Virus record (IMG/VR): IMGVR_UViG_3300006893_000009
Location: 1-58,602 of that record
Direction: 5' to 3' (one strand)
Length of the DNA: 58,602 nucleotides
From: a virus
Lineage: Duplodnaviria > Caudoviricetes
Position 1 is the first letter of the stretch. The number at the start of each line of letters is the position of its first letter. Positions 3,001-58,602 of the stretch are shown here, piece after piece. The position numbers were made by a program, and so were the translations under genes. The notes beneath the pieces are model-generated. The model was not told the DNA's origin. It saw only the letters and a program-made list of their open reading frames with translations, and searched no databases.

Positions 3001-4535
3001 GTCCGCGCATTCTGTCTGATGTGAAAATCTCTGGCAACTGGATGAAGTTCGGTCGGCTGTGGGGTAAGAATCTTGTTGGCTCTCTTACCAAGTCCCCTGA
3101 ATGGCAAGAAGCTATTCAACAAGGTTACCTATTCTCTGGGCTACAACGTCTTATAACTCCAGAGATGAAATTGGAGACCGCATCACTTGGAGTTGGTCAG
3201 AAGATTGCTAAGTTCCGCTTGCTGTCTGCTGCGGAAGATTTGGCGGCAGCCCGTGCTGATGCTGTTAAGATGACTACTTTCCAAATGCTTCGTGAGCAAG
3301 GCTACTCTGAAAAAGCAGCCCGCTACGAGACCAAACGCTATGGTGGTATGCCTGACTACTCTCAGTCTGGTGACTTGCATCCTGCAATCAGACTAGCTAC
3401 AGTATTCTTTAACGCTGACCTACAACACTTGGGTCAGACTATGAGCCGTTTGGCTGACAAGCCTGAGCGCATCCTGCCCATTCTGGGAAGCCTGACTGCC
3501 ATGACAATGGCCCTCTCCACTTGGAACTACTCACACAAGGATGAAGATGGTCAACCGCTCATGCGCAGAGTCCCTGCTGATGAACGCGACCGGAACTTTA
3601 TTATCTTGACTGGTGGCACTCATCCCACCTCTAGTGGGTCCTATACGCCCAATAGATTGTCTGTTCGTAAGCCTGACATCATCATGTACACCATCAACCC
3701 TGTTGAGAATGCTTTGAACAAGGCAATTGGGTTTGAGAATCGTAAGGCTATTGAGATTGCAGCCGACGCCATTAAGGGTTTGACACCGTTCTCTCATGGC
3801 TCTATTACAGCCGAACATCCTGTTAGGGACGCTGCACGTTCAATTGGTGGCTCTATTAACCCGCTGGTTAGAGTGCCTCTTGAAGAGGCTGCGAATAAGC
3901 AGTTTGGTACAGGCTCGCCCATTGTAAGCCGTCCAAGCATCGCTCCTCAATATCAAGCTACGGCTGGCACACCATCTGTTTATCAACAGATGGGTCAAGC
4001 TACAGGTACATCTCCTCAACGTCTACAACACATTGCAGGGGGACTGACTGGCGGCTTGGCTGATGCTGTTGCACAACAGATGGACCCGTATGTTCGTCAA
4101 GGCGCTGCTGGCCCACTCAAGGGAACGCAAGGCGCTAGGCGTCAGCTTCCTGTCATTGGTCAGGCTGCTGCCAGACTCACTGGAGGTAACGTGGACGCTG
4201 TTGAACAGCAGGCTACCACTAAATTCTATGACCGCTTGGAGCAAACTAAGGAAGCTCAACAGACCTTTGATTACCTCAAGAAGTCCAATCCGCAAAAGGC
4301 TCAGGAGTTCTTACAGAGCAACCGTAATCTAATCAGTACTTCAGGCTTTACAAATAGAGCTGCTATCCAATTGGGTAAGCTCGCACAGATGCGTTCGGAA
4401 ATCCAAACCAACCCGAACATCTCTGATGAAGACAAGACCAAGCAACTTGCGAACATTGCAAAAGCTCGCATCACTTACATGAATGCGTACAACGAAGCAC
4501 TGGACAGAGTTCTTTCTCAAGGAGCAAATAAATGA
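15..4535 (+). CDS. C-terminal 1506 aa of a giant internal virion/DNA-ejection polyvalent protein (begins at 57046); LPD38-like C-terminus
   Basis: In frame with 57046-58602 across the junction (..NFKQLVD|LKNAREAA..). C-terminal PDYSQSG..FFNA..ERDRNFIIL..NPLVRVPLEEAANKQFGTGSPI..SPQRLQHI resembles LPD38. Last of the ejection-gene block. Confidence 0.75.
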   Translation: MKNAREAARDDNAKQLIEEQIKGSLARVSQIQDLRMQAVGVDGLQALRDEHFQRSDWYKSRAEGINKLQDLTERNAKTAEQISQDRATQPQAEAINPETGEAMALEQGAPMRPLSRSIFDLLQNRKPRYTLDDLQVNQPKEGVTPEEWKTFTDGMMTDLKTRYASIVRDISIHQDVGGGADLEDTDIPDRMKELDADASMIGQFDKHLREQKRAGIRVDVGRRPHLEPPVNADGTIKDPAALWKMDGATWARIKGSKSTSRSIPEATEVRQFARDQAAFGQLHDMARAHVDQTLNPLRATARQVLDNMQPAANPEAGFAGERAPESYEIPSVDEILKRAKSAGIDVVTNITRDGKTPNYGWLAPDGKSALDLHEVMHVGAAGQILPELGNGFAAQTAMLDAGWIRKASHQYFEVGELTDKTVDTIETDTILSGRHGHSLIVDTKGDQGNIQPLSIDREWQDGSLKKAIKQAKARQRWLEPQPHVIDLSDEAGRVPGAVNLGAASIGAVGGHIVGLHAGGPVGALIGAVSGFTLGYISPELIRSRFVQRAFSAMEPVLKAAGIDAKSWVMGYKAPDAILPEMKDIIDQQRRDPEGSGLGFLERMSQLPTDARRYLFNKFAILDDQRTPGLTSMLSKYDPRIPVGARPSVDASPYVSLADAAGQISGRKDFNIIQFSSIYHDAMQAGLDTHLMEYLNLKGYKRVFDVMEERVRNGVAQLKQIDQKLQDPKLSMKDRVGLQSDRDTVKQDANEAWNKLSGKVEAVPGGYTPQSINDGFQKLAQTLGPDAMQKIDGWAQQVFKYGRQSLDMAHDNGVVSDAVYKKLIARGDEYINMSRIMSDLADNYSRFDKLGKASPMYVSKQNIIRNLEGSERVNQNPLKANMMINNEMMSEAIRNKVVGEFVQTATANPDMYGDSFKKVGPNYKPLKGEAIVTHYVDGKPQLYKVGEDVYQALQGAAPINHDIVSKAMQSFYNVFRAGATGLNLGFQLAALPTDIMRPRILSDVKISGNWMKFGRLWGKNLVGSLTKSPEWQEAIQQGYLFSGLQRLITPEMKLETASLGVGQKIAKFRLLSAAEDLAAARADAVKMTTFQMLREQGYSEKAARYETKRYGGMPDYSQSGDLHPAIRLATVFFNADLQHLGQTMSRLADKPERILPILGSLTAMTMALSTWNYSHKDEDGQPLMRRVPADERDRNFIILTGGTHPTSSGSYTPNRLSVRKPDIIMYTINPVENALNKAIGFENRKAIEIAADAIKGLTPFSHGSITAEHPVRDAARSIGGSINPLVRVPLEEAANKQFGTGSPIVSRPSIAPQYQATAGTPSVYQQMGQATGTSPQRLQHIAGGLTGGLADAVAQQMDPYVRQGAAGPLKGTQGARRQLPVIGQAAARLTGGNVDAVEQQATTKFYDRLEQTKEAQQTFDYLKKSNPQKAQEFLQSNRNLISTSGFTNRAAIQLGKLAQMRSEIQTNPNISDEDKTKQLANIAKARITYMNAYNEALDRVLSQGANK

Positions 4536-4866
4536 ACATCTACATCGCATTAGCTAGTGTTGCTGTCGCTGTAGGTGCAGCCGGACAATTTGCTGACGCA
4601 TACACGACGTATCAAGGCGTTAAGAAATTTGGTCCAAGCATTGAAGGCGACCAGAACTGGCTTGCTCAGTTTATCGTTAATCACTTCCCTTGGTCTATGG
4701 CTATCAAACCCGCAGGGATGGTTGGAATCGGCGCACTGTTGATTGCCATTAGCCCTCAATCAACGGTGGTGGATTAGCCCTAGCTGGTATCCTTGGGACT
4801 GCCTCAGCTATCATCAGCTTCGTTACCGCACGCGACAATAGCAACATCAACGCTACAAAGTCATAG
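4532..4866 (+). CDS. DUF5658-like membrane protein, apparently frameshifted near 4758
   Basis: Hydrophobic helices and DAYTT..G..EG motif; the -1 frame continues NGGGLALAGILGTASAIISF..TKS* to TAG at 4866. Confidence 0.5.
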
Positions 4867-4885
4867 ACCCTTTAGGAGGTGGGTA

Positions 4886-5299
4886 ATGTTCAACAGGAGA
4901 TTTGCAGTCCAGAAATGGGTTGGTCGGTATCAGTCTGACCTAATCTATCTCTATGGGAAAAGGACTTTTCAGATAGCGGCTCGTAAACTTGAGACGTTCT
5001 TTGAGCATTTCCCTGAGATGACTAATCTCAATGAACTCACTTTGCCTGACCTTGTGGATTATGTTGAGCGCCGGAAAAATGAAGGCGCAAGCTATCGTAC
5101 TGTTGAAATGGAGATAAGAGCGGTGAGACGTCTTTATACATGGCTCATTGAAAAGTGGATGTATCCGAACGCTAACCCCGCGCTAGCCTTCGCTCCGCTT
5201 CCTTTCAAAAAAAGGAAATGCCCCAAATCCGAAGACTTGGGGCAAGTTAAGATTGAGCGTGAACTTCTTAAGGATGAAGACCTAGACTATCTCTTGTAG
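4886..5299 (+). CDS. Stand-alone tyrosine-recombinase N-terminal SAM-like/core-binding domain protein (no catalytic domain)
   Basis: LPDLVDYVERRKNEGASYRTVEMEIRAVRRLYTWL..NPA pattern; AGGAGG SD before ATG 4886; only 137 aa. Confidence 0.65.
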   Translation: MFNRRFAVQKWVGRYQSDLIYLYGKRTFQIAARKLETFFEHFPEMTNLNELTLPDLVDYVERRKNEGASYRTVEMEIRAVRRLYTWLIEKWMYPNANPALAFAPLPFKKRKCPKSEDLGQVKIERELLKDEDLDYLL

Positions 5300-7247: not shown

Positions 7248-8117
7248 TTAGTTATCTGCATTCAGAACATGTGGAGACACACTATTCTTTGCAACCCTCT
7301 CAAGCTTCGCAGCGCCGGGAACATTGTTCCGTTCGTGCGGCTTATACTCTCCCATATAGGTTATCAACCCACTCTCTTCTCTTCGTACATACATGTTGTG
7401 TAACGGCTTCCCTCGCCGAATCTCAAACTCCAATTCAAGGATTGGTGTCGGGTGCGACGCTTCGGATTTCCGTGTAACGCCAATAAATGTATCCACAGCA
7501 CCAAACAGCGCAGAGCTTCCACGTAATTTATCGCCACCTTGTTTAGGATGTTCCTCACTCTGTTTGCCGATGTGATGAACAATTAAGATGGAAGTCTTAA
7601 AGGCATCTATCCAACGCTTACAAACTCGCAAGGTCGCGCTCATTTCTTGGGCGCTATTTTCATTGATTAACTGGAACTCCGCAAGTGGGTCAAAGATAAC
7701 TACGTCAGGCTTACAGGCAGCTATCTCATTCGCAATTGCGACTTTGCCTTCTGGAGTATCAAGTCTTAAGTCCATATCTCTTGACTTGATAAATATGTCC
7801 AGACCTACTCCGACTTCCCCTTCAAGCATTGGGAGTAGGCGGTCACGCATACCTTCGTCACCAATTTCTTGCTCAATGTAAAGGACTCTCTGCCGCTTAG
7901 TCACAGGCAGGACGGGTATGCCGCTGGCATACTTGGCGTCAAATATATTCTGGCCACGCGCTAGGTCGAGAATCATATTCAACACCACGTAGCTCTTATT
8001 ATGTTTCGGCGGCCCACCAATTACTGCGAGAGACTGACTAGGCAGTACACCCCGCCCAATGATTTGGGGTTTGTGTACGATTTCGCGCGTCAAAAAGTCC
8101 GTAAGCAGTTCTGCCAT
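7248..8117 (-). CDS. RepA-type (AAA_25, SF4-like) helicase
   Basis: Walker A GPPKHNKS, YIEQE, Walker B VIFDP, VHHIGK, LRGSSAL. Confidence 0.8.
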   Translation of the reverse strand: MAELLTDFLTREIVHKPQIIGRGVLPSQSLAVIGGPPKHNKSYVVLNMILDLARGQNIFDAKYASGIPVLPVTKRQRVLYIEQEIGDEGMRDRLLPMLEGEVGVGLDIFIKSRDMDLRLDTPEGKVAIANEIAACKPDVVIFDPLAEFQLINENSAQEMSATLRVCKRWIDAFKTSILIVHHIGKQSEEHPKQGGDKLRGSSALFGAVDTFIGVTRKSEASHPTPILELEFEIRRGKPLHNMYVRREESGLITYMGEYKPHERNNVPGAAKLERVAKNSVSPHVLNADN

Positions 8118-8475: not shown

Positions 8476-10899
8476 TCAATCTTTTAGCTCGCCCCAACTC
8501 TCGCCGGGGTTACCAACTTTAACAGCCACCGGAATCATATAGCCCGCCAACTCTGGCCAGAGCTGTTCCATTGCAGCCGTCAGACATGCTTTCACTTCTT
8601 CGACAAGCGCGTAGGGACATTCCACTAGGAGCGAGTCGTGAACCTGTAAAATCAATCTTGCTGGATAAGGAAGTGGGAAGACTTTGGGTACAACCTTCAA
8701 AGCCAACTCAACTGGCCATCCTATCCGTTCGTACATCAATGCAATCATGGAACGATAACAGATGTCCGCTCCACTAGACTGCAACATAAATCTAATGCCT
8801 TCAGTGTATGCAGTTTGTGACCAGAACCACCGCTTGCGTCCGAAGGCTGTGGTGAGAACACCATCCTTCATCGCTTGATTGCCAGTGCGCTCTTGCCATT
8901 GAGCCGAAGCCCAGTTCAGCTTCTTCCACATAGTGAGAAGGTCTTTGCAATCCTTCTCAGGGATGTTATACTGAACCGACATCTTCCGTGGCCCCATACC
9001 AGCATCAGCACCGTGATTCGTATGCTTGGCACGACCATATTCATCGGACTTCTTATTTATCTCTTCTTCAGGAAGATTGAATATCTGAGAAGCCAACCAT
9101 CGATGCTCATTGAAACCGGGGATTGCGAGTCTTTTAAGTCTATCTGCATCGTCAGCGTACCATGAGGCCAGACGATTTTCAAGAGAGCTAAAGTCAGCTT
9201 CAACAAAGCACCAATCACTATGCGACGGAACATAGATGTGTTTTGCAATAGGAGGGACATTTTGCATGTTTGGACTACTACTTGCAAGTCGTCCAGTGTT
9301 TGTCCCGTGTACAAGGAAATTGGTATGTATTCTTCCAACAGCAACTTGTTTGTCATGGTCAGCATCCTTCAGAAAGGTTCCGATGACTTCATCAAGGTGA
9401 CGAATCTCTGCAAGCTGCTTGAGGAAAGGAAGCTTGGTCTTGCGGAACAATCTATCAAGAGCAGTCTTATCAGTCGTTACTTTCTTTGTCTTGGCGTGGA
9501 GTTGTTTGGGGAGGGCGAGCTTGTCGTAGAGGTAGCGCTCCACAGTTTTTGAAGACTGCCAAGGGACAACCCGTTCAGTGCTTGGGACATGGATGTATTT
9601 AATCGGCTTGCCAGATTTGCCAAGAGTTCCTGCCGGAGCAAGTTGTCGGACTTTGATTGGTTTGTCATATGGCTTTAAGTCTATAGGGAGTTGAGCTTCT
9701 AATTCAGCCAGCTCACCTATGTACCGTACACGTTGCTTCTTAATGTTGTTAGGGTCAACCTTGATACCTGTATCAGACATCAACTTGCAAATCTTTGCAA
9801 GTGGAATCTGAACATACTTGTACAAGTTAGTCAACTTCATTTGGTCTAGGCGCGGACGGATGGCTCTATAAGATTGGGCCGTGGCGTCAACGTCACCAGC
9901 GCAATACCAAGGCATGTCTGCCTTAACATGCTTCCATGCGACCATCTGTGTACAGATTGAAGCGATGTGCTCTAGGTCATATGCAGCGGAGTCAGGCGCA
10001 ATCAAATGGTACATCAACATGATGTCCCATACCTGACAATCAGGACTGATAACTACACCAGCATCCGCAAGCCTAGGAAGGTCAAACTGAATTATGTTCT
10101 GCCCAATAGCTTCTTCAGCATTTGCAAAGATTCGTCGGAGTTCCGCAATGTAAATACCCGCGAAAGGTACGACGATAACATGATAAGGGTTACCAAAGTC
10201 AGACACCCCGACCATTGTAATCTGCTCGGTATAGCGATTCGTTTCAATGTCGAATACAAGCTGCTTTGGCGAAAATGCTTGTATCTCTTCGACCGTTGGA
10301 TGTGTGTTATAGTATTGCGGAGGAACCTGAATCCCTTTTTGTATGTCAGATATAGTGTCAGGTATTCTAGCACTATCCCGCATGAGGTAAGAAGGATGTA
10401 GTGTTCCGATAACACGTGGTTTCGTCTCCCCTTTCAATGGTAGCGGGCTTCCCCGCCACTTCATTATTCCTTCAGTTTTTCCAGTAAGGAGTTTAAGTGA
10501 CTCATTTCCGATGGCGTCAATTCTATCCCACGGTCTGCTCTCCAATACAGGTTTAACATGAGACTGAAAGCAGTGAGATACGATTTCACGTCCTTCGGAT
10601 TCTGTACAATAGCTTCTAGCTTCTTTAGATGTGGGGTAAGCGTTGTTAGGAGGTCGGCAGTTAACTGTGTTGAGAATTGTGAGTTGGTCACGTTGGACTC
10701 CAGCCTTACGCCATAAAGAATCTTGAATACGCCCGCTACCACCAACAAGCGGCTTTCCTTCAATAGCTTCCTCAGCACCCGGCGCTTCAGCAATGACAAG
10801 CCGAAGTGATGGACCCATTTGAGGTGGGACTAAGTTATTCTCAGGGAATTTTGCCCGCATCGGGCATTGTTCACAAGCAACGCAGTCCTTGACTTTCAT
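8476..10899 (-). CDS. Family A DNA polymerase with N-terminal family-4 uracil-DNA glycosylase-like domain and 3'-5' exonuclease
   Basis: CxxCxxC..AEAPG..NCRPP..HPS (UDG); FDIET/NIIQFD/YCAGD (Exo I-III); TGRLASSSPNMQN, ADFSSLENR, RAKHTNHG, QVHDS (Pol A). Confidence 0.92.
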   Translation of the reverse strand: MKVKDCVACEQCPMRAKFPENNLVPPQMGPSLRLVIAEAPGAEEAIEGKPLVGGSGRIQDSLWRKAGVQRDQLTILNTVNCRPPNNAYPTSKEARSYCTESEGREIVSHCFQSHVKPVLESRPWDRIDAIGNESLKLLTGKTEGIMKWRGSPLPLKGETKPRVIGTLHPSYLMRDSARIPDTISDIQKGIQVPPQYYNTHPTVEEIQAFSPKQLVFDIETNRYTEQITMVGVSDFGNPYHVIVVPFAGIYIAELRRIFANAEEAIGQNIIQFDLPRLADAGVVISPDCQVWDIMLMYHLIAPDSAAYDLEHIASICTQMVAWKHVKADMPWYCAGDVDATAQSYRAIRPRLDQMKLTNLYKYVQIPLAKICKLMSDTGIKVDPNNIKKQRVRYIGELAELEAQLPIDLKPYDKPIKVRQLAPAGTLGKSGKPIKYIHVPSTERVVPWQSSKTVERYLYDKLALPKQLHAKTKKVTTDKTALDRLFRKTKLPFLKQLAEIRHLDEVIGTFLKDADHDKQVAVGRIHTNFLVHGTNTGRLASSSPNMQNVPPIAKHIYVPSHSDWCFVEADFSSLENRLASWYADDADRLKRLAIPGFNEHRWLASQIFNLPEEEINKKSDEYGRAKHTNHGADAGMGPRKMSVQYNIPEKDCKDLLTMWKKLNWASAQWQERTGNQAMKDGVLTTAFGRKRWFWSQTAYTEGIRFMLQSSGADICYRSMIALMYERIGWPVELALKVVPKVFPLPYPARLILQVHDSLLVECPYALVEEVKACLTAAMEQLWPELAGYMIPVAVKVGNPGESWGELKD

Positions 10900-10920: not shown

Positions 10921-11097
10921 TTACTTCTGGGAGAGATGCTTGTCGAACAGATAAGACCATGCACAGAACGATAGCCAGAATATAGCGAGGAATTCAAACG
11001 CATGAAGAACTTGACCGTTAGCAATAGCTAGCATCGAGTTTACGAAGGCCAGAATTGCGACGGCAAGTAACCCACCTCTCAAAAGGGTCTTCGCCAT
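10921..11097 (-). CDS. Small 2-TM membrane protein (not in ORF track)
   Basis: MAKTLLRGGLLAVAILAFVNSMLAIANGQVLHAFEFLAIFWLSFCAWSYLFDKHLSQK. Confidence 0.5.
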   Translation of the reverse strand: MAKTLLRGGLLAVAILAFVNSMLAIANGQVLHAFEFLAIFWLSFCAWSYLFDKHLSQK

Positions 11098-14371: not shown

Positions 14372-14613
14372 TTACCCTCTGTTTTGTAGGTTGATTTAAG
14401 CCAGTTGTCGTAACAGGTTTGTCTGTACTTTGTTTCGTCGGGAGACTCAGTTATACTACCAAGAAATTGGTCTTGAAGTCTTTTCAATTCAGCAAGATAC
14501 CGACCACTCATGGTGCCCGGAACGAATGATTTCAAGGTGAGGACCCCTCTATAGGTGGGATGAACTACGAAAAGTTGGGCAAGGGTAGCATACAAGTATG
14601 TGCTTGTATTCAC
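14368..14613 (-). CDS. Hypothetical protein
   Basis: ORF overlapping the ATPase start. Confidence 0.45.
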   Translation of the reverse strand: MNTSTYLYATLAQLFVVHPTYRGVLTLKSFVPGTMSGRYLAELKRLQDQFLGSITESPDETKYRQTCYDNWLKSTYKTEGK

Positions 14614-14991: not shown

Positions 14992-15507
14992 CTAATTTTG
15001 CATTTTCTTGAAAATAGTTTGCAGGCGGCGATGTAGGGATGATTGAGATATGCAAGTTAGCTTAGCCATCTCTATCTCATTGTATCCCTCAAGGAACATG
15101 AATATCAAGTCCCTATCCCCTTGGTCAAGTTTTGCAATTCGCTTCTTAAGGTCAATCTTATCAATGAGCGATACCTTATGCGTAGCCTCTATATCACTGG
15201 CGGAAGAAAGTTCCAGCTCTTTATGCCGCACATGAGTGTCTACCGCATCAATACACACCTGCCGGATAATCATTGTTGCCCAAGTGGTAAACTCCGATTT
15301 GTTGGAATCAAAGGAGTTCATGTACTTTCGGATTTTGATGAAAGACTCAGGTACGCAGTCCTCAAAGTACTTGAACTTGCGGGCTGAGCGGAAGTATTTG
15401 TTGACCGTCCGGCCACAGAAGTCCAATAAATCCACCGCAAATGGGTCCTCGGTGATTGGGCTAGGATTGGCTAGATATGCTTGGGCAAGCTCATTCAACG
15501 TCTGCAT
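14992..15507 (-). CDS. ECF-like sigma70-family RNA polymerase sigma factor
   Basis: Region 2 FEDCVPESFIKI..FDSNKSEFTTWATMIIRQVCID; region 4 HTH GYNEIEMAKLTCISQSSLHRRL; GGAG SD before ATG 15507. Confidence 0.85.
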   Translation of the reverse strand: MQTLNELAQAYLANPSPITEDPFAVDLLDFCGRTVNKYFRSARKFKYFEDCVPESFIKIRKYMNSFDSNKSEFTTWATMIIRQVCIDAVDTHVRHKELELSSASDIEATHKVSLIDKIDLKKRIAKLDQGDRDLIFMFLEGYNEIEMAKLTCISQSSLHRRLQTIFKKMQN

Positions 15508-17186: not shown

Positions 17187-18022
17187 TATCCAATCTCCCC
17201 TATACCCTTAATCTGAAGGTATTCTTCCCGTGGCTTAAACTTCGTTTTCCGAATCTCATCTGACCATCCATAAGTGTGGGGAAGATAAAACTCACACTCA
17301 CCCCATGTATAGCATTGCTCCGTGGAAGATGGCCAAGGCTTGTCTCCAAACTTTTGGCGATACAACTCAATCGTATCTGCGATAGTAGCTAAGTCTAATA
17401 ACGCCTTATCAATTTGCTCCTGCGTCCGCTCAAGCTTCTGACGGTCAGGAAAGTATGGCGGCTTCTCTCCAGCCGGACTCTGACGCACAAGGATATTCAC
17501 ATAGAAATTGTCAATCTGTTCGTTGGGCCTAAGCTGTCTCTCAGCCCAAAGATACAAACTCGCTTGTGCTCTTGCAGCCCACTTCTGAGGCTGATTACTC
17601 TTGGATGACCTGTTCTGTGTCTTATGGTCAATGATATCCAAATGTTCAGTGATATGTGAGCGCACAGTTAAGTCAATCTTCCCAATGGCGAAGTGATGCG
17701 AGTTAGGGATGGGCAACCTAAACACATGCTCGACATCCACAACCTCAAACTCTTCAGCCGGATAGTGAGCTTTGTATAGGTTAATCATCTCGACAGCCTC
17801 CACCTCTAATGGGTCTATGCCGCTAGGTGGATACCGCCAATTGATACACTCCTTGAGATAGTGCTCCTCAAGCAATTCGTGCTCCCTTGCACCAAACTGC
17901 AAAGGTGTGTAAATCTCAGACTTGCTTATCTTCTCAAGACCTGTTCCTTCCTTCTCATACTTCTCTTGATAAAGATACGGACAAGTCATAAAAGCATTGG
18001 CCCTACTATTGTCTATGTCGAT
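17186..18022 (-). CDS. PD-(D/E)XK (Cas4/RecB-like) exonuclease; probable non-AUG start
   Basis: DNSRANAFMTCP, G..H, E, GKID, IIDHKT, Q..LY, C-terminal C..C..C. Confidence 0.8.
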   Translation of the reverse strand: MDIDNSRANAFMTCPYLYQEKYEKEGTGLEKISKSEIYTPLQFGAREHELLEEHYLKECINWRYPPSGIDPLEVEAVEMINLYKAHYPAEEFEVVDVEHVFRLPIPNSHHFAIGKIDLTVRSHITEHLDIIDHKTQNRSSKSNQPQKWAARAQASLYLWAERQLRPNEQIDNFYVNILVRQSPAGEKPPYFPDRQKLERTQEQIDKALLDLATIADTIELYRQKFGDKPWPSSTEQCYTWGECEFYLPHTYGWSDEIRKTKFKPREEYLQIKGIGEIG

Positions 18023-19249: not shown

Positions 19250-20011
19250 CTATAGAGCCTCAGCCCAATCATGGACACTTTTTGCCAAACGAATCCCGCT
19301 GACACGTTCCAGACTGGAGATGTCTGGCATGGAATTGACTTCAAGGATATATGTCCCATTCGTAGGGTGTACCAGTACATCGACAGCCCCAAAGTCCATT
19401 TTCAAAGTCTTGACAGCCTTAACCGCTTGAAAACACATTTGGGACATCATCAAAAGGTCGTCCCGCTTTTCAGAACGGTATTCCATTGTCTTGAAATTCA
19501 TGACGCTTGGATTCTTGTACTTCTTCTCATAAGCCGCGAACACTTTTTCCTTGTAAACCCACAACCGTAATTCCATCGTGTGTGGTACATAAACAGAGAA
19601 GAATTCTTTCTTACCTTCCTCAACAATCGTTTGCACTTGCGAAAACTTTTCGCACAACTCTATGTCAAGACCCTTTTCGTGGTGGAAGTTCCGTGCGAAC
19701 CAAGGCTTCGACAGCTCGAAAAGCTTGTGGCTCATCAAGGCGACGGCTGGACTAATGAGCTTGGGAATCTTCAATCCCGCTTCGTCAAACAGGAGCATAG
19801 CCTCGAACTTGTTGAAAATATTGACGTTAGCATTGAGAGCCGGGACATTTTTGACATACGCATCACGGGTTGAGCAGCCCCAACACAGGATGCAATCGTA
19901 ATCTTCCTGCTTTGACCGGACTACCTTATGTCCATATTCCTCAAGGTGTGTTTGCATCACCTTGACCCCGGATTCTTCCTTTGCACCACCACGAATGTAA
20001 ATCTTTTTCAT
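19250..20011 (-). CDS. ATP-grasp ligase (RimK/YheCD-like)
   Basis: WG..NK..ELRLWV..AVKTLKMDFGAVDV..ILEVNSMP. Confidence 0.85.
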   Translation of the reverse strand: MKKIYIRGGAKEESGVKVMQTHLEEYGHKVVRSKQEDYDCILCWGCSTRDAYVKNVPALNANVNIFNKFEAMLLFDEAGLKIPKLISPAVALMSHKLFELSKPWFARNFHHEKGLDIELCEKFSQVQTIVEEGKKEFFSVYVPHTMELRLWVYKEKVFAAYEKKYKNPSVMNFKTMEYRSEKRDDLLMMSQMCFQAVKAVKTLKMDFGAVDVLVHPTNGTYILEVNSMPDISSLERVSGIRLAKSVHDWAEAL

Positions 20012-35044: not shown

Positions 35045-35068
35045 TCCACTTTCAAAGGGTCCTCAACT

Positions 35069-43859: not shown

Positions 43860-44297
43860 ATGAATTTTCGTAAATTGTTTCAGGGTACGAACCCAGCATC
43901 ACCGGACCTTGCTTCACAAGTGCCCGAGTTTGTGCCTTATATCAAATACAAGATTGTTGAAGTTGACTCTCCGAGGACCCCATTAGAAGGTGGGGAGACT
44001 GAGGAGATGCAGGCGTCAATTGCAACTCTCGCGTATCATCCCGGATTCCAGTATCTCTTGAAACGGCTCGCATTACAAAATGCGGCATTGAAGTCCAAAC
44101 TTACATACGAGCGTCACAAAACGCTTGACGAAGTTAACTTCTTTCAAGCTGGAGTCTATTGGTCGGGTTGGCTCTTGACAGAACTAAAGCGGACTACCGT
44201 GAAGGTTGTGTCTCGTAAGATTGACCCGGTTGACGAAGAACTTGCAGCTTTCAAAGCTATTGACAGTCAACTCGAACGTGTAGGTATGGACGAGTAA
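43860..44297 (+). CDS. Hypothetical protein preceding the scaffold
   Basis: GGAGGG SD; LAYHPGFQYL helix motif typical of post-portal genes. Confidence 0.65.
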   Translation: MNFRKLFQGTNPASPDLASQVPEFVPYIKYKIVEVDSPRTPLEGGETEEMQASIATLAYHPGFQYLLKRLALQNAALKSKLTYERHKTLDEVNFFQAGVYWSGWLLTELKRTTVKVVSRKIDPVDEELAAFKAIDSQLERVGMDE

Positions 44298-48648: not shown

Positions 48649-48881
48649 ACTTTCAAAACATCTGGAACAAGATTACTAATGATGCGCACATCCCTATAGC
48701 TCTTGGCGTGTTCGTGTCAACGAGTGCTTTTCATTTCATCAAGCACATAGACTTGGGACCCAACTACACAAACTCTATCTACGCTATGTACGGGTTCCTA
48801 GCAGCGCACGGTGCAGCCCAACAGAAGTGGCCCGACTCTAGCTCTACACAAGGACCCACTACAGGTGGGACAGGTTCATAA
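48645..48881 (+). CDS. Putative holin
   Basis: 78 aa with two hydrophobic segments; lysis context. Confidence 0.45.
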   Translation: MNFQNIWNKITNDAHIPIALGVFVSTSAFHFIKHIDLGPNYTNSIYAMYGFLAAHGAAQQKWPDSSSTQGPTTGGTGS

Positions 48882-50027: not shown

Positions 50028-50278
50028 TGTCTGAAGCAAGGATGACCCCGTTAGATTCTCAAGATGACCAGAATTATCGCTACTCCCGCGAGACGTGGCT
50101 TGAAGCCGGAGTAGATAACTGGACATTGCCACCGAGCCAGAACGCAGATATGATGCTTCAAATGCTAAATCTGCTCCCACCTATAGGTGGGTCCTTGCTG
50201 CGTCGGTGGGGATACAGACTCTTCTTACCAGTTCAAGACTTTGGGGCGACTCCAACTAGCGATTCTCTAAATGGCTAA
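50027..50278 (+). CDS. Small protein resembling the N-terminus of nozzle/stabilisation proteins
   Basis: GVDNWT..NLLP..GSLLRRWG. Confidence 0.45.
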   Translation: MSEARMTPLDSQDDQNYRYSRETWLEAGVDNWTLPPSQNADMMLQMLNLLPPIGGSLLRRWGYRLFLPVQDFGATPTSDSLNG

Positions 50279-52805
50279 TCCAACCATAAAGGCTGAGCAC
50301 CTCTATCTCTTTGATAGTGAAGGTGACGGCTTTCAAACTCTTATAGCGACTGTAGCGGATGGAACTGGCAACCTGAACTCTCTCACGAATAACGTGGGGT
50401 ATTGGGACCAGAACGGGAACCTCGCTCAGATATTCGCTCCAAGTAACGGTGCTTACAATCCGCGCATGGTCAACTCACGCGACTATGCTTACTTTGAAGA
50501 TGGGGTTGAGGCTGACCTTTACAAGTGGAACACTGACATTGGACTAGAAGAATGGGGTATTGACGCTCCAACGACCGCGATTGCTGTTGGTACAGCTACA
50601 GGCGGTGGCGCTAAATCCTATGTCATTACCGATGCACAAACGTCATCTGCTGGGGATACAACTTATGATGGCACTAACTTAGGTGGCATTGTTGCTTCGT
50701 CATGGGTCACGATTTCAGGCTTTACCAGTGCGGGTAACAATGGAACCTTTCAAGTTGTTAGCTCAACAGCTACAACTGTAACCGTCATCAATTCTGGTGG
50801 CGTCGCTGAGACTGGTGGGACATACGCACTTAGCACCAGCAACGCGCTTTCACCTCATGTCTTGCTCAACGGTTGGGGACCCTTCCAGCATATTGGCGCG
50901 TTTGAAAACAACATGGAGCAAGCGTATAACTTTACGTTTGCCGATACGACAGCTAATCCCTATGTTAACCCTACTGCTCCTACACTTGGTGTAGTCAATC
51001 AGGCGTTTTACGCTTACTATGAAGACCCAGGTAATCATAGCTATGGTGGTATCGTTTATGTATTCGCTGCACCTGCACAGACTCTAAGTGGACTTCAACT
51101 TCAGATTAACTCTGAGGTTCCTCAAACACTCAGCAACGGTAGCCAGACGACATTGCGCAGCGCGGGTATTTGGTACTCTCTTGATGGTGGCAACACTTGG
51201 ACCCAAATTTACAACCAAGGTGCCAGACCACAACAATGGGATACCATCTTCCTTGCGAATGGACAGAACATAGCTGATGTGCAGGTTATGGCATTTTGTG
51301 ATAGCCATGACCACATGGGACAGTTCGTTTACCAGATTCAGATTATTGGAACCACGACTGGAACTGGGCCTATCACCATTTACTCTGGCCGTACTTACTA
51401 TGCGGTGTTTAACAACAGCGTCACAGGCAACTTCAGTGACCTGTCTCCCGTGTCAGCAAGTACAGGACCCATTGATGGTGGGGCAATTCCTCTTACAAAT
51501 ATTCCCATCTCCGCCGACCCACAGGTAGATACTGTTTACATTCTCGCCACGGCTGATGGTGGTGACCCAAGCATTCTGTACTACGTCACCTCATTACCTA
51601 ACGGTACGACTTCCTATCTTGACGGTACGCCTGAACAAGTGCTCTTGCTCTCAGCAATCTATGGCTTTACTGACTCGGCTGGCAATGAGTTCGGTGTATT
51701 TGACAACACTCCGCCACCCGCAAATGGTAAGTTTCCCATTAAGCATCTTGGCCGAATTTGGATGGCTGTTGGTTCGGAAGTTCAGTTCTCTAAGAACACG
51801 ACTGACTTGACCACCCCTTCAGGTATTATCGCAGGTCGCTATGAAGAGGATTGGCCGAGCTTCAATGTGCTAGACATATCTGAGGACGCTGAAGCAGTCA
51901 CAGGTTTGTATTCGGATGGTCAAGTTCTCTATATTGGAACTGACCGTACCATTCGACGGATTCAAGGTGATAGCCCCGCGAACTTCTCTCTACCTCAAGT
52001 CATCTTTGCTGAAGTAGGTGTTGTGAATCAAGACGTTTGGCAGACCGTATTTATTGAAGGAACTCCTGTCGGAACGATGTGGTTGACGCCTGATTTCCGA
52101 GTCATTCTCTCGGACTTCAACACGTACAAAGATATCGGTACGCCAATCCAGAACATCTTGAGCAGCATTAACATCAGCGCGGTCGATTCAGCGTGGGCAA
52201 CATTTGGTAGCTATGGACCCTATGGCTTCTACATTCTTGCCATCCCAACAGGGATAAATACCATTCCTGATACCATGTGTGTTTATGACATGCGTATGAA
52301 GAAATGGTTCATCTGGCAAGCAGCGGACCTAGCGCTGTGCGGATTGTACTATATCAGTCTTGGTGGAACATCCAGAATCATCTTCTGCGATTCCAATGGC
52401 TACATTCGAGTGTTTGACCCGACGACATCTCAGGATAGAGCCACAGAGTCCACAGCTCAAGGTATCACATCTACCATTCAAACTACATGGTTGGATTTGG
52501 GCGACCCGATGCTGCGCAAGCTCATCAATGAAATTGAGACGTATAGTACTGACCCAAATATCACGGTGACCTTGGAAGGAGCCTCGCAAGATGCTAATGG
52601 CTTTCTCACACCTGTTGCAGCCGTCACTAACGCTCAATTGATTCCCAATCTCTTTGGTCAATTAAAGACGCCTACTGCTGGAACAGTCACAACGTCAAGA
52701 TACTATAGACTCACTTGGAGTACGACATCAACTGGAGTAAGCTTGCCTAGCGATGTAATTCTTGGTTCATACAGTCTTGAAGTCGTACCACTTGCGAGAA
52801 TCTAA
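50271..52805 (+). CDS. Tail nozzle / stabilisation protein (P22 gp10 or T7 gp12 analogue) with inserted domains
   Basis: 844 aa, beta-propeller-like (HLGRIW..FS..VTGL..YDMRMKKW..STIQT..D..RK); podovirus synteny. Confidence 0.7.
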   Translation: MANPTIKAEHLYLFDSEGDGFQTLIATVADGTGNLNSLTNNVGYWDQNGNLAQIFAPSNGAYNPRMVNSRDYAYFEDGVEADLYKWNTDIGLEEWGIDAPTTAIAVGTATGGGAKSYVITDAQTSSAGDTTYDGTNLGGIVASSWVTISGFTSAGNNGTFQVVSSTATTVTVINSGGVAETGGTYALSTSNALSPHVLLNGWGPFQHIGAFENNMEQAYNFTFADTTANPYVNPTAPTLGVVNQAFYAYYEDPGNHSYGGIVYVFAAPAQTLSGLQLQINSEVPQTLSNGSQTTLRSAGIWYSLDGGNTWTQIYNQGARPQQWDTIFLANGQNIADVQVMAFCDSHDHMGQFVYQIQIIGTTTGTGPITIYSGRTYYAVFNNSVTGNFSDLSPVSASTGPIDGGAIPLTNIPISADPQVDTVYILATADGGDPSILYYVTSLPNGTTSYLDGTPEQVLLLSAIYGFTDSAGNEFGVFDNTPPPANGKFPIKHLGRIWMAVGSEVQFSKNTTDLTTPSGIIAGRYEEDWPSFNVLDISEDAEAVTGLYSDGQVLYIGTDRTIRRIQGDSPANFSLPQVIFAEVGVVNQDVWQTVFIEGTPVGTMWLTPDFRVILSDFNTYKDIGTPIQNILSSINISAVDSAWATFGSYGPYGFYILAIPTGINTIPDTMCVYDMRMKKWFIWQAADLALCGLYYISLGGTSRIIFCDSNGYIRVFDPTTSQDRATESTAQGITSTIQTTWLDLGDPMLRKLINEIETYSTDPNITVTLEGASQDANGFLTPVAAVTNAQLIPNLFGQLKTPTAGTVTTSRYYRLTWSTTSTGVSLPSDVILGSYSLEVVPLARI

Positions 52806-57020: not shown

Positions 57021-57045
57021 GTCAACGACCCATTAAAGGTGGCTC

Positions 57046-58602
57046 TTGCCTCAATCACCGCAGCAATCTGATTATCTCAAGACAACTTTGCAGCAGTCTA
57101 CCACTTTGACTGATGACCAGCGTCAGCAGATGTGGGATACGTTTCATCAAGCCAAAGACCAAGGCGATTTCGTCCAGCGGGTGAATAAACTCTCATGGAT
57201 GGGCGATGATGCGAAGCAGTCTCTATACGAGCTAAGATATAAGCCTGAAAAGTGGATGACCCAATCGGGCCAACCCATTCCCCCCTCTCAACAGGGGGCT
57301 GCTCCTGTTTCTACACCCCAGCAGACAGGGTTCGTACCTCTTAAAAGACTCACTGACCTAGCCCCACCTCAGAAAGGGTCCTCACCTTCCGGTATCAATT
57401 TTGACCAGATAGAGGATAGGATTACTGGTGAGATGATTCCTCATGCTCTTGCCACGGCTGACCAAGTATTGAATCAGCCTATTGGCAAGACTCTCTTTGG
57501 GATTCCTTCGTTGTCCGAAAGCGCTGCCAAGATGCGTGCGGCTATTGCCCCACCCGTTCAAGGTGGAACTGCGGGTATGACTGCTGACGCTAAGCGTATT
57601 GCTTTGACCACTGGTGCTGGGTTAGGTGATTATCTTCAATCCCCGGCTGGTGTGGCTGGTGAGTTCTTGACTATCGCTACTGGTGGTGCTGCTGGCCCGG
57701 CTATTGCAGGCGCATATGCTGTAGACTCTGGCACCCACACTTACCAACAATATCAGAATTACCAAAAGAATCCAACTCCTGAGAACCTACAGAATGTACT
57801 TCAGTCTAGTGCCATGACTACGCTTATGGCATCTGGGGCGACTCATGCAACGCCTATGGCCGTTGACCCAGCTATAACTCTTGACCGTTCACGGATGGCA
57901 CGGGATATGGTTGCCCCAACTCCTGAACCCACGCAGCCTCCTGTTGTTCCAAGAGGAGCTGGTACAAGCGCTGTTCAGTTAGTTGACCAGCCTCCTGCAA
58001 TCTCTAAGGAAGCTGACATCCAAGCCCATTCAGGTGAGATTGCCCGGATGCAAAGAGTGTTGGATAGTCCCGGTGTGCCTGCTGATGAAAAGGCTTATGC
58101 TCGTCAGGCTATGCAAGCTTCTATTGAACAGCGGGATGTTTTGCAGCGCCCAGACAGTCGAGCAGCTATAACTGAGAAGCAACCCAACGTACTTGCCCCC
58201 AAGGTGGGTCCAGAAATTGCTCCAGAACCCATCCAGAATAATTTGGAATCCCTTGCCCCTGAGCATCAAGAAATTGCTCAAAGGATAGAGGAGCAATCCC
58301 CTGCACCGTCTGCTGGCGTTGCCCCTGAGGAAACTGCGAATCGCAAAATGGTAGAAGACCTTGGAGGGGTTTGGAAAGGTTCTGACCAGCTTGGTCTTTC
58401 GCATTTTGATGCACCTGAAGCTCTCCTTGGTCGTAAAGACGTTACTATCTCTGTTCCTACTGACAAGCTTTCTCCAGACTATATCAAAGCTCAGTTCGAC
58501 CGTAAGGCTGCGGAGTTCGCCCCTAAGCCGCTTCCTGCAACGGAAGATGTCATGCCACGCTTGAACACTCTCATGGAGAATAACTTCAAGCAGCTTGTTG
58601 AC
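57046..58602 (+). CDS. N-terminal 519 aa of the giant virion protein (missed by the ORF track; continues at 15)
   Basis: TTG start after AAGGTGG; open to the contig end (LPQSPQQSDYLK..ENNFKQLVD). Confidence 0.8.
   Translation, partial: MPQSPQQSDYLKTTLQQSTTLTDDQRQQMWDTFHQAKDQGDFVQRVNKLSWMGDDAKQSLYELRYKPEKWMTQSGQPIPPSQQGAAPVSTPQQTGFVPLKRLTDLAPPQKGSSPSGINFDQIEDRITGEMIPHALATADQVLNQPIGKTLFGIPSLSESAAKMRAAIAPPVQGGTAGMTADAKRIALTTGAGLGDYLQSPAGVAGEFLTIATGGAAGPAIAGAYAVDSGTHTYQQYQNYQKNPTPENLQNVLQSSAMTTLMASGATHATPMAVDPAITLDRSRMARDMVAPTPEPTQPPVVPRGAGTSAVQLVDQPPAISKEADIQAHSGEIARMQRVLDSPGVPADEKAYARQAMQASIEQRDVLQRPDSRAAITEKQPNVLAPKVGPEIAPEPIQNNLESLAPEHQEIAQRIEEQSPAPSAGVAPEETANRKMVEDLGGVWKGSDQLGLSHFDAPEALLGRKDVTISVPTDKLSPDYIKAQFDRKAAEFAPKPLPATEDVMPRLNTLMENNFKQLVD
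58589..58602. repeat. Terminal overlap, copy 2
   Basis: Identical to 1-14. Confidence 0.9.

What the first reader, a model, noticed from the sequence alone, without database searches (positions are those of the whole stretch)
3624..57380. Genome-wide dispersed motif GACCC-N6-8-GGTGG, about 21 copies on both strands, written into protein-coding sequence
Seen: + strand at 4866, 10812, 14542, 19669, 24462, 30709, 37064, 43976, 48853, 51466, 57027; - strand at 3624, 11071, 15431, 17799, 24996, 28567, 38119, 43773, 50176, 57363; near-variants at 35045 and 57551. The spacer usually starts W-Y-T (ATTAAA, TTTAGA, ACTACA). With uniform base frequencies about 0.3 hits are expected. Each strand has a copy roughly every 2.5-9.5 kb, regardless of transcription direction. 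Most copies lie inside unrelated ORFs and impose peptides such as PPQMGP (PolA), PPIMGP, PPLKGP, PPIGGS, RPIGGG, GPIDGG and GPTTGG, so selection appears to act on the DNA. The site is pseudo-palindromic (GACCCAYT vs GTCCCACC) and some copies form hairpins. Inference: a cis-acting DNA system, e.g. priming signals, programmed nick sites (cf. nicked T5, phiKMV-like and tf genomes, although those are strand-specific), or sites for a genome-coating, partitioning or anti-defence protein.
Basis: partly seen in the sequence, partly recalled or inferred. Interest (0 to 1): 0.9.

Follow-up and report, generated by a model that had tools for sequence, protein, structure and literature searches.

The report
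Evenly spaced strand-specific phage DNA word
This uncultured water phage and its relatives keep a short two-part DNA word about every 5 kb on each strand, even inside genes, which suggests that something reads the two strands separately, most likely to start DNA synthesis.

Summary
GACCC-N6-8-GGTGG occurs 21 times (11+, 10-) where 0.22 are expected. A codon-preserving shuffle leaves 0.6 of the 14 coding copies.

The window is a whole ~59 kb uncultured phage genome. Five syntenic relatives (25-85% protein identity) carry 15-20 copies each, in lineage "dialects".

New findings:
- Copies on one strand are evenly spaced. 0 of 100 same-strand gaps are under 2 kb, where 27 are expected.
- Orientation ignores transcription: 43 sense, 44 antisense, all six frames.
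- Convergent opposite-strand pairs are enriched.
- A sister clade lacks this word but has its own two-box words with the same architecture.

This argues against promoters, RNA elements, mobile inserts and simple duplex-binding sites.

My best reading (about 0.3) is strand-specific start sites for DNA synthesis, by priming or nicking. The phage has a family A polymerase and an IncQ RepA-like helicase but no recognisable primase. Nick sites alone and Chi-like sites remain live rivals. The reader protein is unknown.

This scan noted similar evenly spaced words in crAss-like phages. I found no published description.

The parts
3625..3640 (-). motif copy GACCCACTAGAGGTGG, antisense inside the giant virion-protein gene
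4866..4882 (+). motif copy GACCCTTTAGGAGGTGG; its 3' box is the ribosome-binding site of the SAM-like (CB) gene, ATG at 4886
10812..10827 (+). motif copy, antisense in the PolA N-terminus (peptide PPQMGP); DNA word kept at the orthologous place in 4 of 5 relatives
11072..11089 (-). motif copy (8-nt spacer) at a gene boundary upstream of PolA
14542..14558 (+). motif copy, 2 nt before an ATG at 14560; antisense to the early operon
15432..15447 (-). motif copy, sense, inside the sigma-factor gene (peptide DPFAVD)
17800..17815 (-). motif copy, sense, inside the PD-(D/E)XK nuclease gene; not at the orthologous place in relatives
19669..19685 (+). motif copy, antisense in the ATP-grasp gene; lineage-specific position
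24462..24478 (+). motif copy in an intergenic gap; here the flanks make a 6-bp stem GACCCA/TGGGTC
24997..25012 (-). motif copy, sense, in the GGCT-like gene (RPIGGG); conserved position in 3 of 5 relatives
28568..28583 (-). motif copy, intergenic
30709..30724 (+). motif copy, intergenic
35046..35061 (-). probable degenerate copy GACCCTTTGAAAGTGG (AGTGG variant) that fills the 9.5-kb gap on the - strand
37064..37079 (+). motif copy, intergenic
38120..38135 (-). motif copy, antisense in an 89-aa ORF (PPIMGP)
43774..43789 (-). motif copy in a divergent intergenic region, 37 nt upstream of the - strand gene that starts at 43736
43976..43993 (+). motif copy (8-nt spacer), 13 nt before an in-frame ATG at 44007; conserved place in 3 of 5 relatives
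48853..48868 (+). motif copy, intergenic, 13 nt before the ATG of the adaptor gene (48882)
50177..50193 (-). motif copy, antisense in an 83-aa ORF (PPIGGS)
51466..51481 (+). motif copy, sense, in the 844-aa structural gene (GPIDGG); conserved place in 2 of 5 relatives
57027..57042 (+). motif copy, intergenic, 3 nt before the TTG start of the giant gene (57046)
57364..57380 (-). motif copy, antisense in the giant gene (PPQKGS)
7248..8117 (-). context, not shown to read the motif: stand-alone ~290-aa helicase; its profile's best solved relative is RSF1010 (IncQ) RepA
8476..10899 (-). context: family A DNA polymerase with an N-terminal UDG-like domain
4886..5299 (+). candidate reader (inference only): 137-aa protein with a phage-integrase N-terminal SAM-like domain; a motif copy sits at its start in 4 of the 9 genomes checked (6 of clade A, 3 of clade B), including one with another dialect

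Best explanation
SHOWN. The word is a polar, two-box DNA signal: a 5' box GACCC, a spacer of 4-8 nt, and a 3' box GGTGG. Selection on the DNA itself keeps it at about 8-11 copies per strand in a clade of ~60 kb uncultured phages. Copies on the same strand are evenly spaced, roughly every 5 kb and never closer than 2 kb. Copies on opposite strands may lie 130 bp apart and tend to face each other. Orientation ignores gene direction. Exact positions turn over between relatives while number and spacing are kept. Lineages, including a sister clade, have their own dialects of the same two-box plan.

INFERRED. The signal is read one strand at a time by a factor that co-evolves with it, probably phage-encoded.

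MOST LIKELY MECHANISM (inference, about 0.3). Each copy marks where synthesis of a new strand is started, either by a sequence-specific primer-making enzyme or by opening a nick whose 3'-OH is extended. The phage's family A polymerase and RepA-like helicase would then replicate by strand displacement. The phage has no recognisable primase. Even spacing would keep any stretch of either strand within a few kb of a start site, and facing pairs would act as two-way start zones. The closest worked-out analogy is IncQ plasmid replication: RepA helicase plus RepB' primase acting on ssiA and ssiB, one on each strand, in leading-strand mode only.
For: Excess and DNA-level selection:
- 21 copies against 0.22 expected.
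- Coding copies 14 against about 0.6 after a codon-preserving shuffle.
- All six frames are used: 17/17/9 antisense and 17/18/8 sense, 86 coding copies.
- PolA site: the peptide VPPxxGPS is kept in 6 of 6 genomes and the DNA word in 5 of 6. In one of those it sits in another frame with a 7-nt spacer.

Strand-specific reading:
- 0 of 100 same-strand gaps are under 2 kb, against 27.4 expected (lowest simulation 12).
- Mean CV of gaps is 0.35 against 0.85.
- The window alone gives CV 0.24 on the + strand (0 of 5000 simulations as low) and P=0.0026 on the - strand.
- Opposite-strand neighbours are often 127-400 nt apart.
- Spacer length varies 4-8 nt within genomes.

Not transcription:
- 43 sense against 44 antisense, and 20 of 107 intergenic.

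Facing pairs:
- 25 convergent against 9 divergent adjacent pairs within 1.5 kb. The circular-shift null gives 12.9, P=0.00025.

Co-evolving dialects:
- A, T or G before GGTGG, and WTT against G after GACCC, differ by lineage.
- Sister clade: 3 copies in 414 kb, but its own words are present.
- ACCCCGTTYT-nn-GCGAGG: 17 and 13 copies in G016 and G017, both strands, 0 of 26 same-strand gaps under 2 kb (P=0.0005).
- ACCCCTTTTT(A/G)GGTAGG: 9 copies in G018.

Replication context:
- The helicase profile's best solved match is RSF1010 RepA, E=1.6e-10.
- No RepB_primase, Prim-Pol or Toprim_2 match in 5 of 5 near-complete genomes.
- RepB' binds a 5' element and starts at the T of a GTG triplet on the 3' side (PMC8567376, passages read). 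The 3' box GGTGG contains GTG.
- The complement of the 5' box, GGGTC, fits the T7 primase site 5'-(G/T)2GTC-3' (PMC12839067, abstract only).
- In the IncQ1 plasmid pDN1, the only ACCC-N3-8-GGTGG match lies in the ssiA hairpin. This is a resemblance only.
Against: - No primase and no nickase was found. Pfam scans of about 60 window ORFs gave none, and neither did the three family scans.
- The best unknown candidate, p265, gives a confident model (pLDDT 81) with no fold match to any solved primase or anything else.
- The motif lacks the 21-nt hairpin and 40-nt length of ssiA. Its own complementarity is 3-4 bp, and its flanks are no more structured than controls.
- The pDN1 match is expected by chance 0.42 times per plasmid.
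- There is no step or gradient of GC or AT skew at or between same-strand copies. The test has low power.
- Both resemblances (GTG, GGGTC) are 3-5 nt long and point to opposite template strands.
- The six genomes are related, so the pooled P values are overstated.
- An earlier check in this scan of the analogous crAss-like words priced a primase-start reading at 9/100 (AI note, not tested here).
- No read-level data could be laid.
Confidence: 0.3

Rival explanations
1. Programmed nick sites in packaged DNA, as in T5, phiKMV-like and tf/Rembedalsseter-like phages, but here on both strands. A late phage nickase cuts the word's strand, with no necessary role in starting replication.
For: Known nick words share several properties with this one.
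- They are sharply defined, with few near-variants. Here, one-mismatch copies are at the chance level (15 against about 12).
- Positions are similar in relatives, and lineages have their own site variants (PMC3517423, passages read; PMC11780129, passages read). Here.
- They occur inside and outside genes without regard to expression.
- The word is polar and strand-specific.
- The phage carries the phiEco32-type COOH-NH2 ligase, GATase and ATP-grasp genes.
Against: - All described nick words lie on one strand only and are not evenly spread. They are denser at one end (PMC3517423 Table 1 as printed in the text; PMC11780129 section 3.9).
- Here the strands are equal (11+/10-) and evenly spaced.
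- No nickase was found.
- A torsional-swivel role would not care which strand is cut, yet close opposite-strand pairs are common.
Confidence: 0.2
2. A Chi-like or self-marking signal. A helicase-nuclease, host RecBCD/AddAB-type or phage-encoded, travels along one strand and is tamed when it meets the word in the right orientation. This would protect or recombine phage DNA from either end.
For: - The word is polar and over-represented, equal on both strands, indifferent to genes, and positions turn over while density is kept.
- Even spacing is what a maximum-distance-to-the-next-site constraint would give if genome ends are permuted. The contig ends of G002 and G008 fall inside genes, so the true ends are unknown.
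- The 3' box equals the last five bases of E. coli Chi (recalled, not from a call).
- The word is absent outside the clade in IMG/VR, which could reflect host specificity.
Against: - Known Chi sites are contiguous 5-8-mers. This is a two-box word with a 4-8 nt variable spacer and about twice the information content.
- Dialects differ between close lineages.
- A scan of bacterial genomes showed only single copies per contig.
- Enrichment of convergent pairs is not predicted.
Confidence: 0.15
3. Duplex binding sites of a phage DNA-binding protein, for example the SAM-like 'core-binding' protein encoded after the giant gene. The protein would organise, coat or regulate the genome.
For: - The SAM-like protein is conserved in 6 of 6 clade genomes and 2 of 3 sister genomes.
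- A word copy sits at its start or ribosome-binding site in W, G002 and G008, and in G018 in that genome's own dialect. This looks like autoregulation.
- The two boxes lie about one helical turn apart.
Against: - For a duplex-bound protein, orientation should not matter for spacing. Yet same-strand copies never lie under 2 kb apart, while opposite-strand copies often lie 127-400 nt apart.
- A spacer range of 4-8 nt (up to about 140 degrees of twist) is hard for a rigid duplex binder.
- The C-terminal half of the protein is variable and is missing in the window.
- The 3' box resembles a Shine-Dalgarno sequence, so its use as a ribosome-binding site may be opportunistic.
Confidence: 0.1
4. A transcription or RNA-level element: a promoter of the phage sigma factor, a terminator, a processing site or a translational operator.
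For: - Intergenic DNA is about 3-fold enriched (20 of 107).
- Five window copies lie 2-13 nt before start codons, and the 3' box resembles a Shine-Dalgarno sequence.
- The phage encodes a sigma-70-family protein.
Against: - 43 sense against 44 antisense copies, and in G007 0 of 20 are intergenic.
- Spacing is equally even on the non-transcribed strand.
- There is no flanking hairpin or T-run.
- No Rfam family lies at any copy.
Confidence: 0.03
5. A tiny mobile insert or a chance or compositional artefact.
For: Within-genome uniformity of dialects could come from copying.
Against: - Exact copies are about 100-fold over shuffles, and half-sites alone are not unusual.
- The PolA copy overlays a conserved peptide with no length change.
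- 27% of 246 site-to-genome comparisons are at orthologous places, against 0.8% for the null.
- Even spacing is not expected of insertions.
Confidence: 0.02

Closest known systems
Nick-associated words of phages with localised single-strand interruptions (tf/Rembedalsseter WACTRTGAC, phiKMV-like, T5)
   Same: A short, sharply defined polar word. About 9-14 copies per ~45 kb genome. Found inside and outside genes. Positions are similar in relatives, with lineage-specific variants. Function is unknown even where the nicks are proven (PMC3517423 and PMC11780129, passages read).
   Different: Those words lie on one strand only, are contiguous 9-19-mers, and are crowded toward one genome end. Here the word is on both strands equally, has two boxes with a variable spacer, and is evenly spaced per strand. 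No nick has been shown here.
IncQ plasmid single-strand initiation sites ssiA/ssiB with RepB' primase and RepA helicase (RSF1010, pDN1)
   Same: Polar sites on opposite strands that start leading-strand synthesis. The helicase here is RepA-like. The site plan is similar: a 5' binding element followed by an initiation triplet containing T (GTG) on the 3' side (PMC8567376, passages). ssiA of pDN1 contains ACCCGAAGGGTGG.
   Different: ssi sites are 40 nt long with a 21-nt hairpin, and occur once per strand at one origin. Here there are ~20-nt words without a stable hairpin, 8-11 per strand. No RepB'-family primase was found.
T7 gene 4 primase recognition sites 5'-(G/T)2GTC-3'
   Same: The complement of the 5' box is GGGTC. 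Flanking sequence modulates T7 site use (PMC12839067, abstract; 10.1101/266924, abstract).
   Different: T7 sites are 5-mers, frequent and not evenly spaced. No TOPRIM primase was detected here.
Chi sites (RecBCD/AddAB)
   Same: A polar, over-represented word, read on one strand by a travelling enzyme, tolerated in genes. Density matters rather than exact position.
   Different: Chi is contiguous and defined by the host. This word has two boxes, a variable spacer and phage-lineage dialects. Host enrichment could not be tested.
DNA uptake sequences (USS/DUS) of competent bacteria
   Same: Both orientations occur, in and between genes, and are more evenly spaced than chance (recalled, no call).
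   Different: Those are chromosomal signals for uptake by the cell. A lytic phage genome has no such process.
Evenly spaced strand-specific words of crAss-like phages
   Same: 20-30 copies, every 5-7 kb on each strand, written through genes, with lineage dialects. They have a C-run ... G-run make-up. One, read as CCCCGTAGAGGG, resembles the sister-clade word ACCCCGTTYT-nn-GCGAGG.
   Different: This is a different phage group, with ~60 kb genomes, a sigma factor and a PolA-UDG fusion. I did not compare the sequences or proteins of those windows myself.

Membership tests
Nick-associated phage words (T5 / phiKMV / tf type) | A physical single-strand break at the word in virion DNA | not testable with these tools
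   Only assembled contigs of one run were available; no read ends.
Nick-associated phage words (T5 / phiKMV / tf type) | All copies on one strand | tested here: not met
   11 on + and 10 on - in the window; 59 on + and 53 on - over six genomes.
Nick-associated phage words (T5 / phiKMV / tf type) | Sharp word, similar positions in relatives, lineage-specific variants | tested here: met
   One-mismatch copies are at chance; 27% of sites are orthologous against 0.8% for the null; dialects exist.
IncQ-type ssi sites | RepA-type hexameric helicase encoded alongside | tested here: met
   A profile of six helicases gives 1g8y RSF1010 RepA as the best solved match, E=1.6e-10.
IncQ-type ssi sites | RepB'-family primase | tested here: not met
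   PF16793 gave no match at E<=1 in 5 of 5 genomes.
IncQ-type ssi sites | 40-nt site with a stable ~21-nt hairpin | tested here: not met
   Conservation ends at about 20 nt; complementarity is only 3-4 bp; flanks are no more structured than controls.
T7-type primase sites | Template pentamer 5'-(G/T)2GTC-3' | tested here: met
   The complement of the invariant GACCC is GGGTC. The site definition is from the abstract of PMC12839067.
T7-type primase sites | Zinc-finger/TOPRIM primase in the phage | tested here: not met
   Toprim_2 gave no match in 5 of 5 genomes. Other TOPRIM and zinc-finger models were not run.
Chi sites | Polar, over-represented, independent of genes | tested here: met
Chi sites | Contiguous 5-8-nt word | tested here: not met
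   Two 5-nt boxes with a 4-8 nt spacer.
Chi sites | Over-represented and skewed in the host chromosome | tested here: inconclusive
   The host is unknown.
Promoters / RNA elements | Orientation follows the transcribed strand | tested here: not met
   43 sense against 44 antisense.
Miniature mobile inserts | Filled and empty sites differ by an insertion | tested here: not met
   At the PolA site the alignment has no length change; the word is written over a conserved peptide.

The most novel reading that the evidence does not exclude
A previously undescribed kind of genome punctuation. A phage-encoded factor reads a two-box polar word on single-stranded DNA and defines start zones for DNA synthesis on each strand, about every 5 kb. 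This would replace a conventional primase. The word and its reader co-evolve into lineage dialects. The same principle may operate in crAss-like phages, where this scan has noted similar evenly spaced words.
Probability: 0.2. Interest if true: 0.88.

Novelty: new variant of a known kind. Interest (0 to 1): 0.72.

Why it matters
Nearly all known phage replication schemes either use short, frequent primase sites or one or a few origins. An array of long polar words, evenly spaced on each strand and kept through essential genes, would be different in two ways.

First, DNA handling would constrain the coding sequence of these phages genome-wide.

Second, an unknown sequence-specific, strand-reading factor would exist.

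If the word marks start sites or nicks, it would give a direct experimental handle on two things. One is the 50-year-old puzzle of what localised nicks are for. The other is how phages with a polymerase and helicase but no primase replicate.

Practically, such words are strong markers for recognising and binning this phage family in metagenomes.

Tried and rejected
- Read-level evidence. The look-up of sequencing runs listed one DNA run, kept as Logan contigs, which may be the source of the window; no RNA holder was listed. Laying it on 3000-22999 gave two contigs with no joints and no ends at motifs. This gives no evidence either way.
- Host. 
- Cultured relatives. There is no nucleotide match in the phage collection. 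MCP identity is at most 29% and PolA at most 25.5% to any GenBank phage.
- Flank structure, composition and skew around copies, and a skew gradient between same-strand copies: no signal.
- Half-sites alone are neither over- nor under-represented beyond what the word contributes.
- Opposite-strand nearest distance was not significant by median. The directional test was significant.
- Contig ends. 8 of 96 true contig ends lie within 150 nt of a word, against 4.3 expected. Six lie at 56-77 nt, on both sides of the word. The window was chosen after the fact, so I did not use this.
  - Pfam or PHROGs on about 60 ORFs.
  - PDB sequence searches of the giant protein, helicase, p265 and p147.
The ESM Atlas gave no usable hit. 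A profile search gave 104 clusters. The second model had pLDDT 81, but there was no fold match in PDB or BFVD and no Pfam family among 63 members.
  - The CB protein has only 3 close homologues in the large protein search.
  - Complex prediction was not used, because it does not take DNA.
- Outside the clade. Two unrelated IMG/VR records that had two pattern hits are not enriched.
- ssiA sequence. The RepB' paper gives it only in a supplementary figure. Supplements are closed, so Fig. S1 of PMC8567376 and Fig. S2/Table S1 of PMC3517423 were not seen. I read the sequence from plasmid pDN1 instead.
- No dialect was found for G019 or G020.

Full report
WHAT THE WINDOW IS

The 58,602-base window is a whole IMG/VR virus record, linear and estimated 91% complete. 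It has no nucleotide match among GenBank phages. Its nearest cultured relatives are remote: MCP at most 29% and PolA at most 25.5% identity.

Genes run leftward from about 32 kb to 5.3 kb (early, replication and an amide-ligase cluster). They run rightward from 32.2 kb to the end and on into 1-5.3 kb (packaging and structure).

Identified genes:
- A family A DNA polymerase with an N-terminal UDG-like domain.
- A ~290-aa AAA_25 helicase.
- AAA_24 and PD-(D/E)XK proteins.
- A sigma-70-family protein.
- Two phiEco32-type COOH-NH2 ligases, a GATase, an ATP-grasp protein, a GGCT-like protein and a GNAT.
- Nucleotide-pool enzymes.
- TerL, portal, MCP and an SU10-type adaptor.
- A giant protein with an LPD38 domain.

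The record is cut inside the giant gene (57046-58602 continues in 3-4535). In complete relatives that gene encodes 1988-2173 aa.

THE OBSERVATION

GACCC-N6-8-GGTGG occurs 21 times, 11 on + and 10 on -. Dinucleotide shuffles give 0.22, and 0 of 100 reach 21.

The word extends to A-R-GACCC-W-T-T-n(2-4)-A-GGTGG-G, and nothing is conserved beyond it.

It is sharp. One-mismatch versions are at the chance level (15 seen, about 12 expected). The exception is 35046(-), an AGTGG variant that fills a long gap.

After shuffling synonymous codons among all genes, 7.57 copies remain. Seven of these are the untouched intergenic copies. So 14 coding copies compare with about 0.6, and three relatives give similar ratios.

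RELATIVES

Pattern and protein scans of IMG/VR found a clade with MCP at least 76% identical. It comprises 56 loci and 514 kb with 114 copies, or 0.22 per kb.

I fetched five near-complete syntenic genomes of 58-64 kb with 25-85% protein identity. With a 4-8 nt spacer they carry 20, 16, 20, 15 and 20 copies. With the window's 21 that makes 112, of which 59 are on + and 53 on -.

Each lineage has a dialect:
- A before GGTGG in the window and G002.
- T before it in G009.
- G or T before it in G008.
- AGGACCC-G-nnn-G-GGTGG in G007.
- aGGACCC-N3-7-GGGTGG in G006.

Only the two boxes are invariant. Spacer length varies within genomes: 6 nt in 59 copies, 7 in 28, 5 in 16, 4 in 6 and 8 in 3.

SELECTION IS ON THE DNA

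On a conservative longest-ORF map, 20 of 107 copies are intergenic (about 6.6 expected), 43 are sense and 44 antisense to the gene they lie in. All six frames are used.

At the PolA N-terminus the peptide VPPxxGPS is kept in all six genomes.
- Five encode it as CCACC...GGGTC.
- One of the five, G008, has shifted the word by a frame, has a 7-nt spacer and reads HPKTGP.
- G006 keeps the peptide with other codons and has no word.

Of 246 site-to-genome comparisons that could be mapped through protein alignments, 27% have a same-orientation copy within 40 nt of the orthologous place, against 0.8% for random places. The rest have moved.

THE KEY NEW RESULT: EACH STRAND CARRIES AN EVENLY SPACED ARRAY

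Over the six genomes, 0 of 100 same-strand gaps are shorter than 2 kb. Random placement gives 27.4, and the lowest of 4000 simulations gave 12. The smallest gap is 2092. The mean coefficient of variation of gaps is 0.35 against 0.85 (one search gave 0 of 95 with the narrower pattern).

The window alone is significant: CV 0.24 on the + strand (0 of 5000 simulations as low) and P=0.0026 on the - strand.

Opposite-strand copies, by contrast, often lie 127-400 nt apart.

The two arrays are not fully independent. A + copy has a - copy within 1.5 kb to its right 25 times, against 12.9 expected from circular shifts (P=0.00025). The divergent arrangement occurs 9 times.

The genomes are related, so these pooled probabilities are overstated.

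A SISTER CLADE WITH OTHER WORDS

Phages with MCP 56-61% identical (32 loci, 414 kb) have 3 copies in all. Five complete genomes have 0, 0, 0, 2 and 1.

They have their own two-box words:
- ACCCCGTTYT-nn(n)-GCGAGG in G016 (8+, 9-) and G017 (6+, 7-), where 0.3 are expected. 0 of 26 same-strand gaps are under 2 kb, CV 0.49 against 0.82, P=0.0005.
- ACCCCTTTTT(A/G)GGTAGG in G018, with 9 clean copies (5+, 4-).
- I found none in G019 or G020.

So the plan is older than either clade, and its boxes drift by lineage: ACCC box, T-rich spacer, G-rich box, both strands, even spacing. This points to a co-evolving reader.

Two unrelated IMG/VR records that had two pattern hits are not enriched.

WHAT THIS EXCLUDES

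- Promoters, terminators and RNA operators are excluded by orientation, by the lack of flanking structure and by the absence of Rfam matches.
- Mobile mini-inserts are excluded by the PolA alignment and by the spacing.
- A simple duplex-binding architectural protein is disfavoured. Orientation should not matter for such sites, yet only same-orientation copies repel each other.
- The spacer range of 4-8 nt also fits recognition of a flexible single strand better than recognition of a rigid duplex.

WHAT IT MOST LIKELY DOES

Processes that treat the two strands symmetrically and separately are replication, nicking, and attack or repair by strand-tracking helicase-nucleases.

The clade encodes its own polymerase and helicase. 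The helicase profile's best solved relative is RepA of the IncQ plasmid RSF1010 (E=1.6e-10), ahead of the T7 gp4 helicase domain. No RepB', Prim-Pol or Toprim_2 primase was detected in 5 of 5 genomes, and none in the Pfam scans of the window's ORFs.

IncQ plasmids replicate only in leading-strand mode. They start from one polar site on each strand, ssiA and ssiB. RepB' holds a 5' element and starts at the T of a GTG triplet on the 3' side (PMC8567376, passages read).

The 3' box here contains GTG. The complement of the 5' box, GGGTC, fits the T7 primase pentamer (PMC12839067, abstract). The only ACCC-N3-8-GGTGG match in the IncQ1 plasmid pDN1 lies in its ssiA hairpin.

These are resemblances, not tests. 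Each is 3-5 nt, or is expected 0.42 times per plasmid by chance.

I therefore rank as follows:
- About 0.30: strand-specific start sites for DNA synthesis, by primer or nick, in strand-displacement replication.
- About 0.20: nick sites without that role.
- About 0.15: a Chi-like signal.
- About 0.10: duplex binding.
A fair share is left for something not yet thought of.

- No enzyme is identified.
- There is no hairpin.
- There is no skew signature.
- An earlier check in this scan was sceptical of the analogous crAss-like words.

CANDIDATE READERS

The SAM-like (integrase core-binding type) protein follows the giant gene in all six clade genomes and in two of three sister genomes. A word copy, in sense orientation, sits at its start in W, G002 and G008, and also in G018 in that genome's own dialect. 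That would fit a protein that binds the word's strand and also its own mRNA. But its C-terminal half is variable and is absent in the window.

The following were detected in the clade and not in the sister genomes: the giant protein, p375, p118, p128, the GGCT-like protein and, in 3 of 5 relatives, p265.

p265 belongs to a family of 104 representative clusters with invariant D, E, H, C and R residues. Its model is confident but has no structural relative.

COMPARISON WITH WHAT IS KNOWN

The nearest published cases are the nick-associated words of tf, Rembedalsseter and 60 related Pseudomonas phages, of phiKMV-like phages and of T5. They share sharpness, positional conservation and lineage variants. 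But they lie on one strand only and are not evenly spread (PMC3517423 and PMC11780129, passages read).

Three full-text searches found no paper on evenly spaced two-strand words in phage genomes.

This scan has several unpublished notes of such words in crAss-like phages. I did not examine those sequences.

I file the finding as a new variant of a known kind (dispersed polar phage words). The bolder possibility is that it is a new kind of replication punctuation.

Noticed in passing
window 18033-18830 (-): A 265-aa protein between the PD-(D/E)XK nuclease and the amide-ligase cluster belongs to a family of 104 representative clusters, about 200-240 aa and stand-alone. It has invariant D19, E22, H76, C129 (in SGCGF), R151 and G184. 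The AlphaFold model has pLDDT 81, but there is no fold match in PDB or BFVD and no Pfam family.
   Followed up: yes
window 57046-58602 and 3-4535 (+): The record is cut inside one giant gene (518 + 1510 aa here; 1988-2173 aa in complete relatives) whose only recognised domain is LPD38. The record is therefore probably close to a full circular assembly. The sister clade has giant genes at the same place that tblastn at E<=1e-4 did not match.
   Followed up: partly
window 5287-7239 (-): A run of nucleotide-pool genes lies next to a PolA with a UDG-like domain: a dATP/dGTP diphosphohydrolase N-terminal domain protein, an NT5C 5'-nucleotidase and a metallophosphoesterase. This may hint at modified DNA. 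I did not search for a PurZ-type gene.
   Followed up: no
window 11646-11721 (-): A tRNA-Asn (GTT) gene, found by both ARAGORN and Rfam.
   Followed up: partly
loci L070, L072, L081, L086, L087, L096 (contig ends): Six of 96 true contig ends of clade members lie 56-77 nt from a word copy, where about 0.6-0.9 are expected for such a window. They fall on either side of the word. The window was chosen after the fact and the excess is unexplained.
   Followed up: partly
G016 whole record (L294-L297): Besides its own two-box word, this sister-clade genome has 12 copies of TTGGGAACT/AGTTCCCAA, another over-represented word of unknown meaning.
   Followed up: no
G008 and G009 (L134-L140): ACTCC...ACTCC pairs 5-9 nt apart occur 26 and 11 times. 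This looks like a short tandem or periodic repeat somewhere in these genomes. I did not locate it.
   Followed up: no
window 4886-5299 (+) versus L068:18900-19574, L127:4578-5294, L135:11562-12266, L139:13244-14089: The SAM-like protein is 137 aa in the window but 212-282 aa in relatives. In the window the C-terminal part is replaced by the convergent MazG-like gene.
   Followed up: partly
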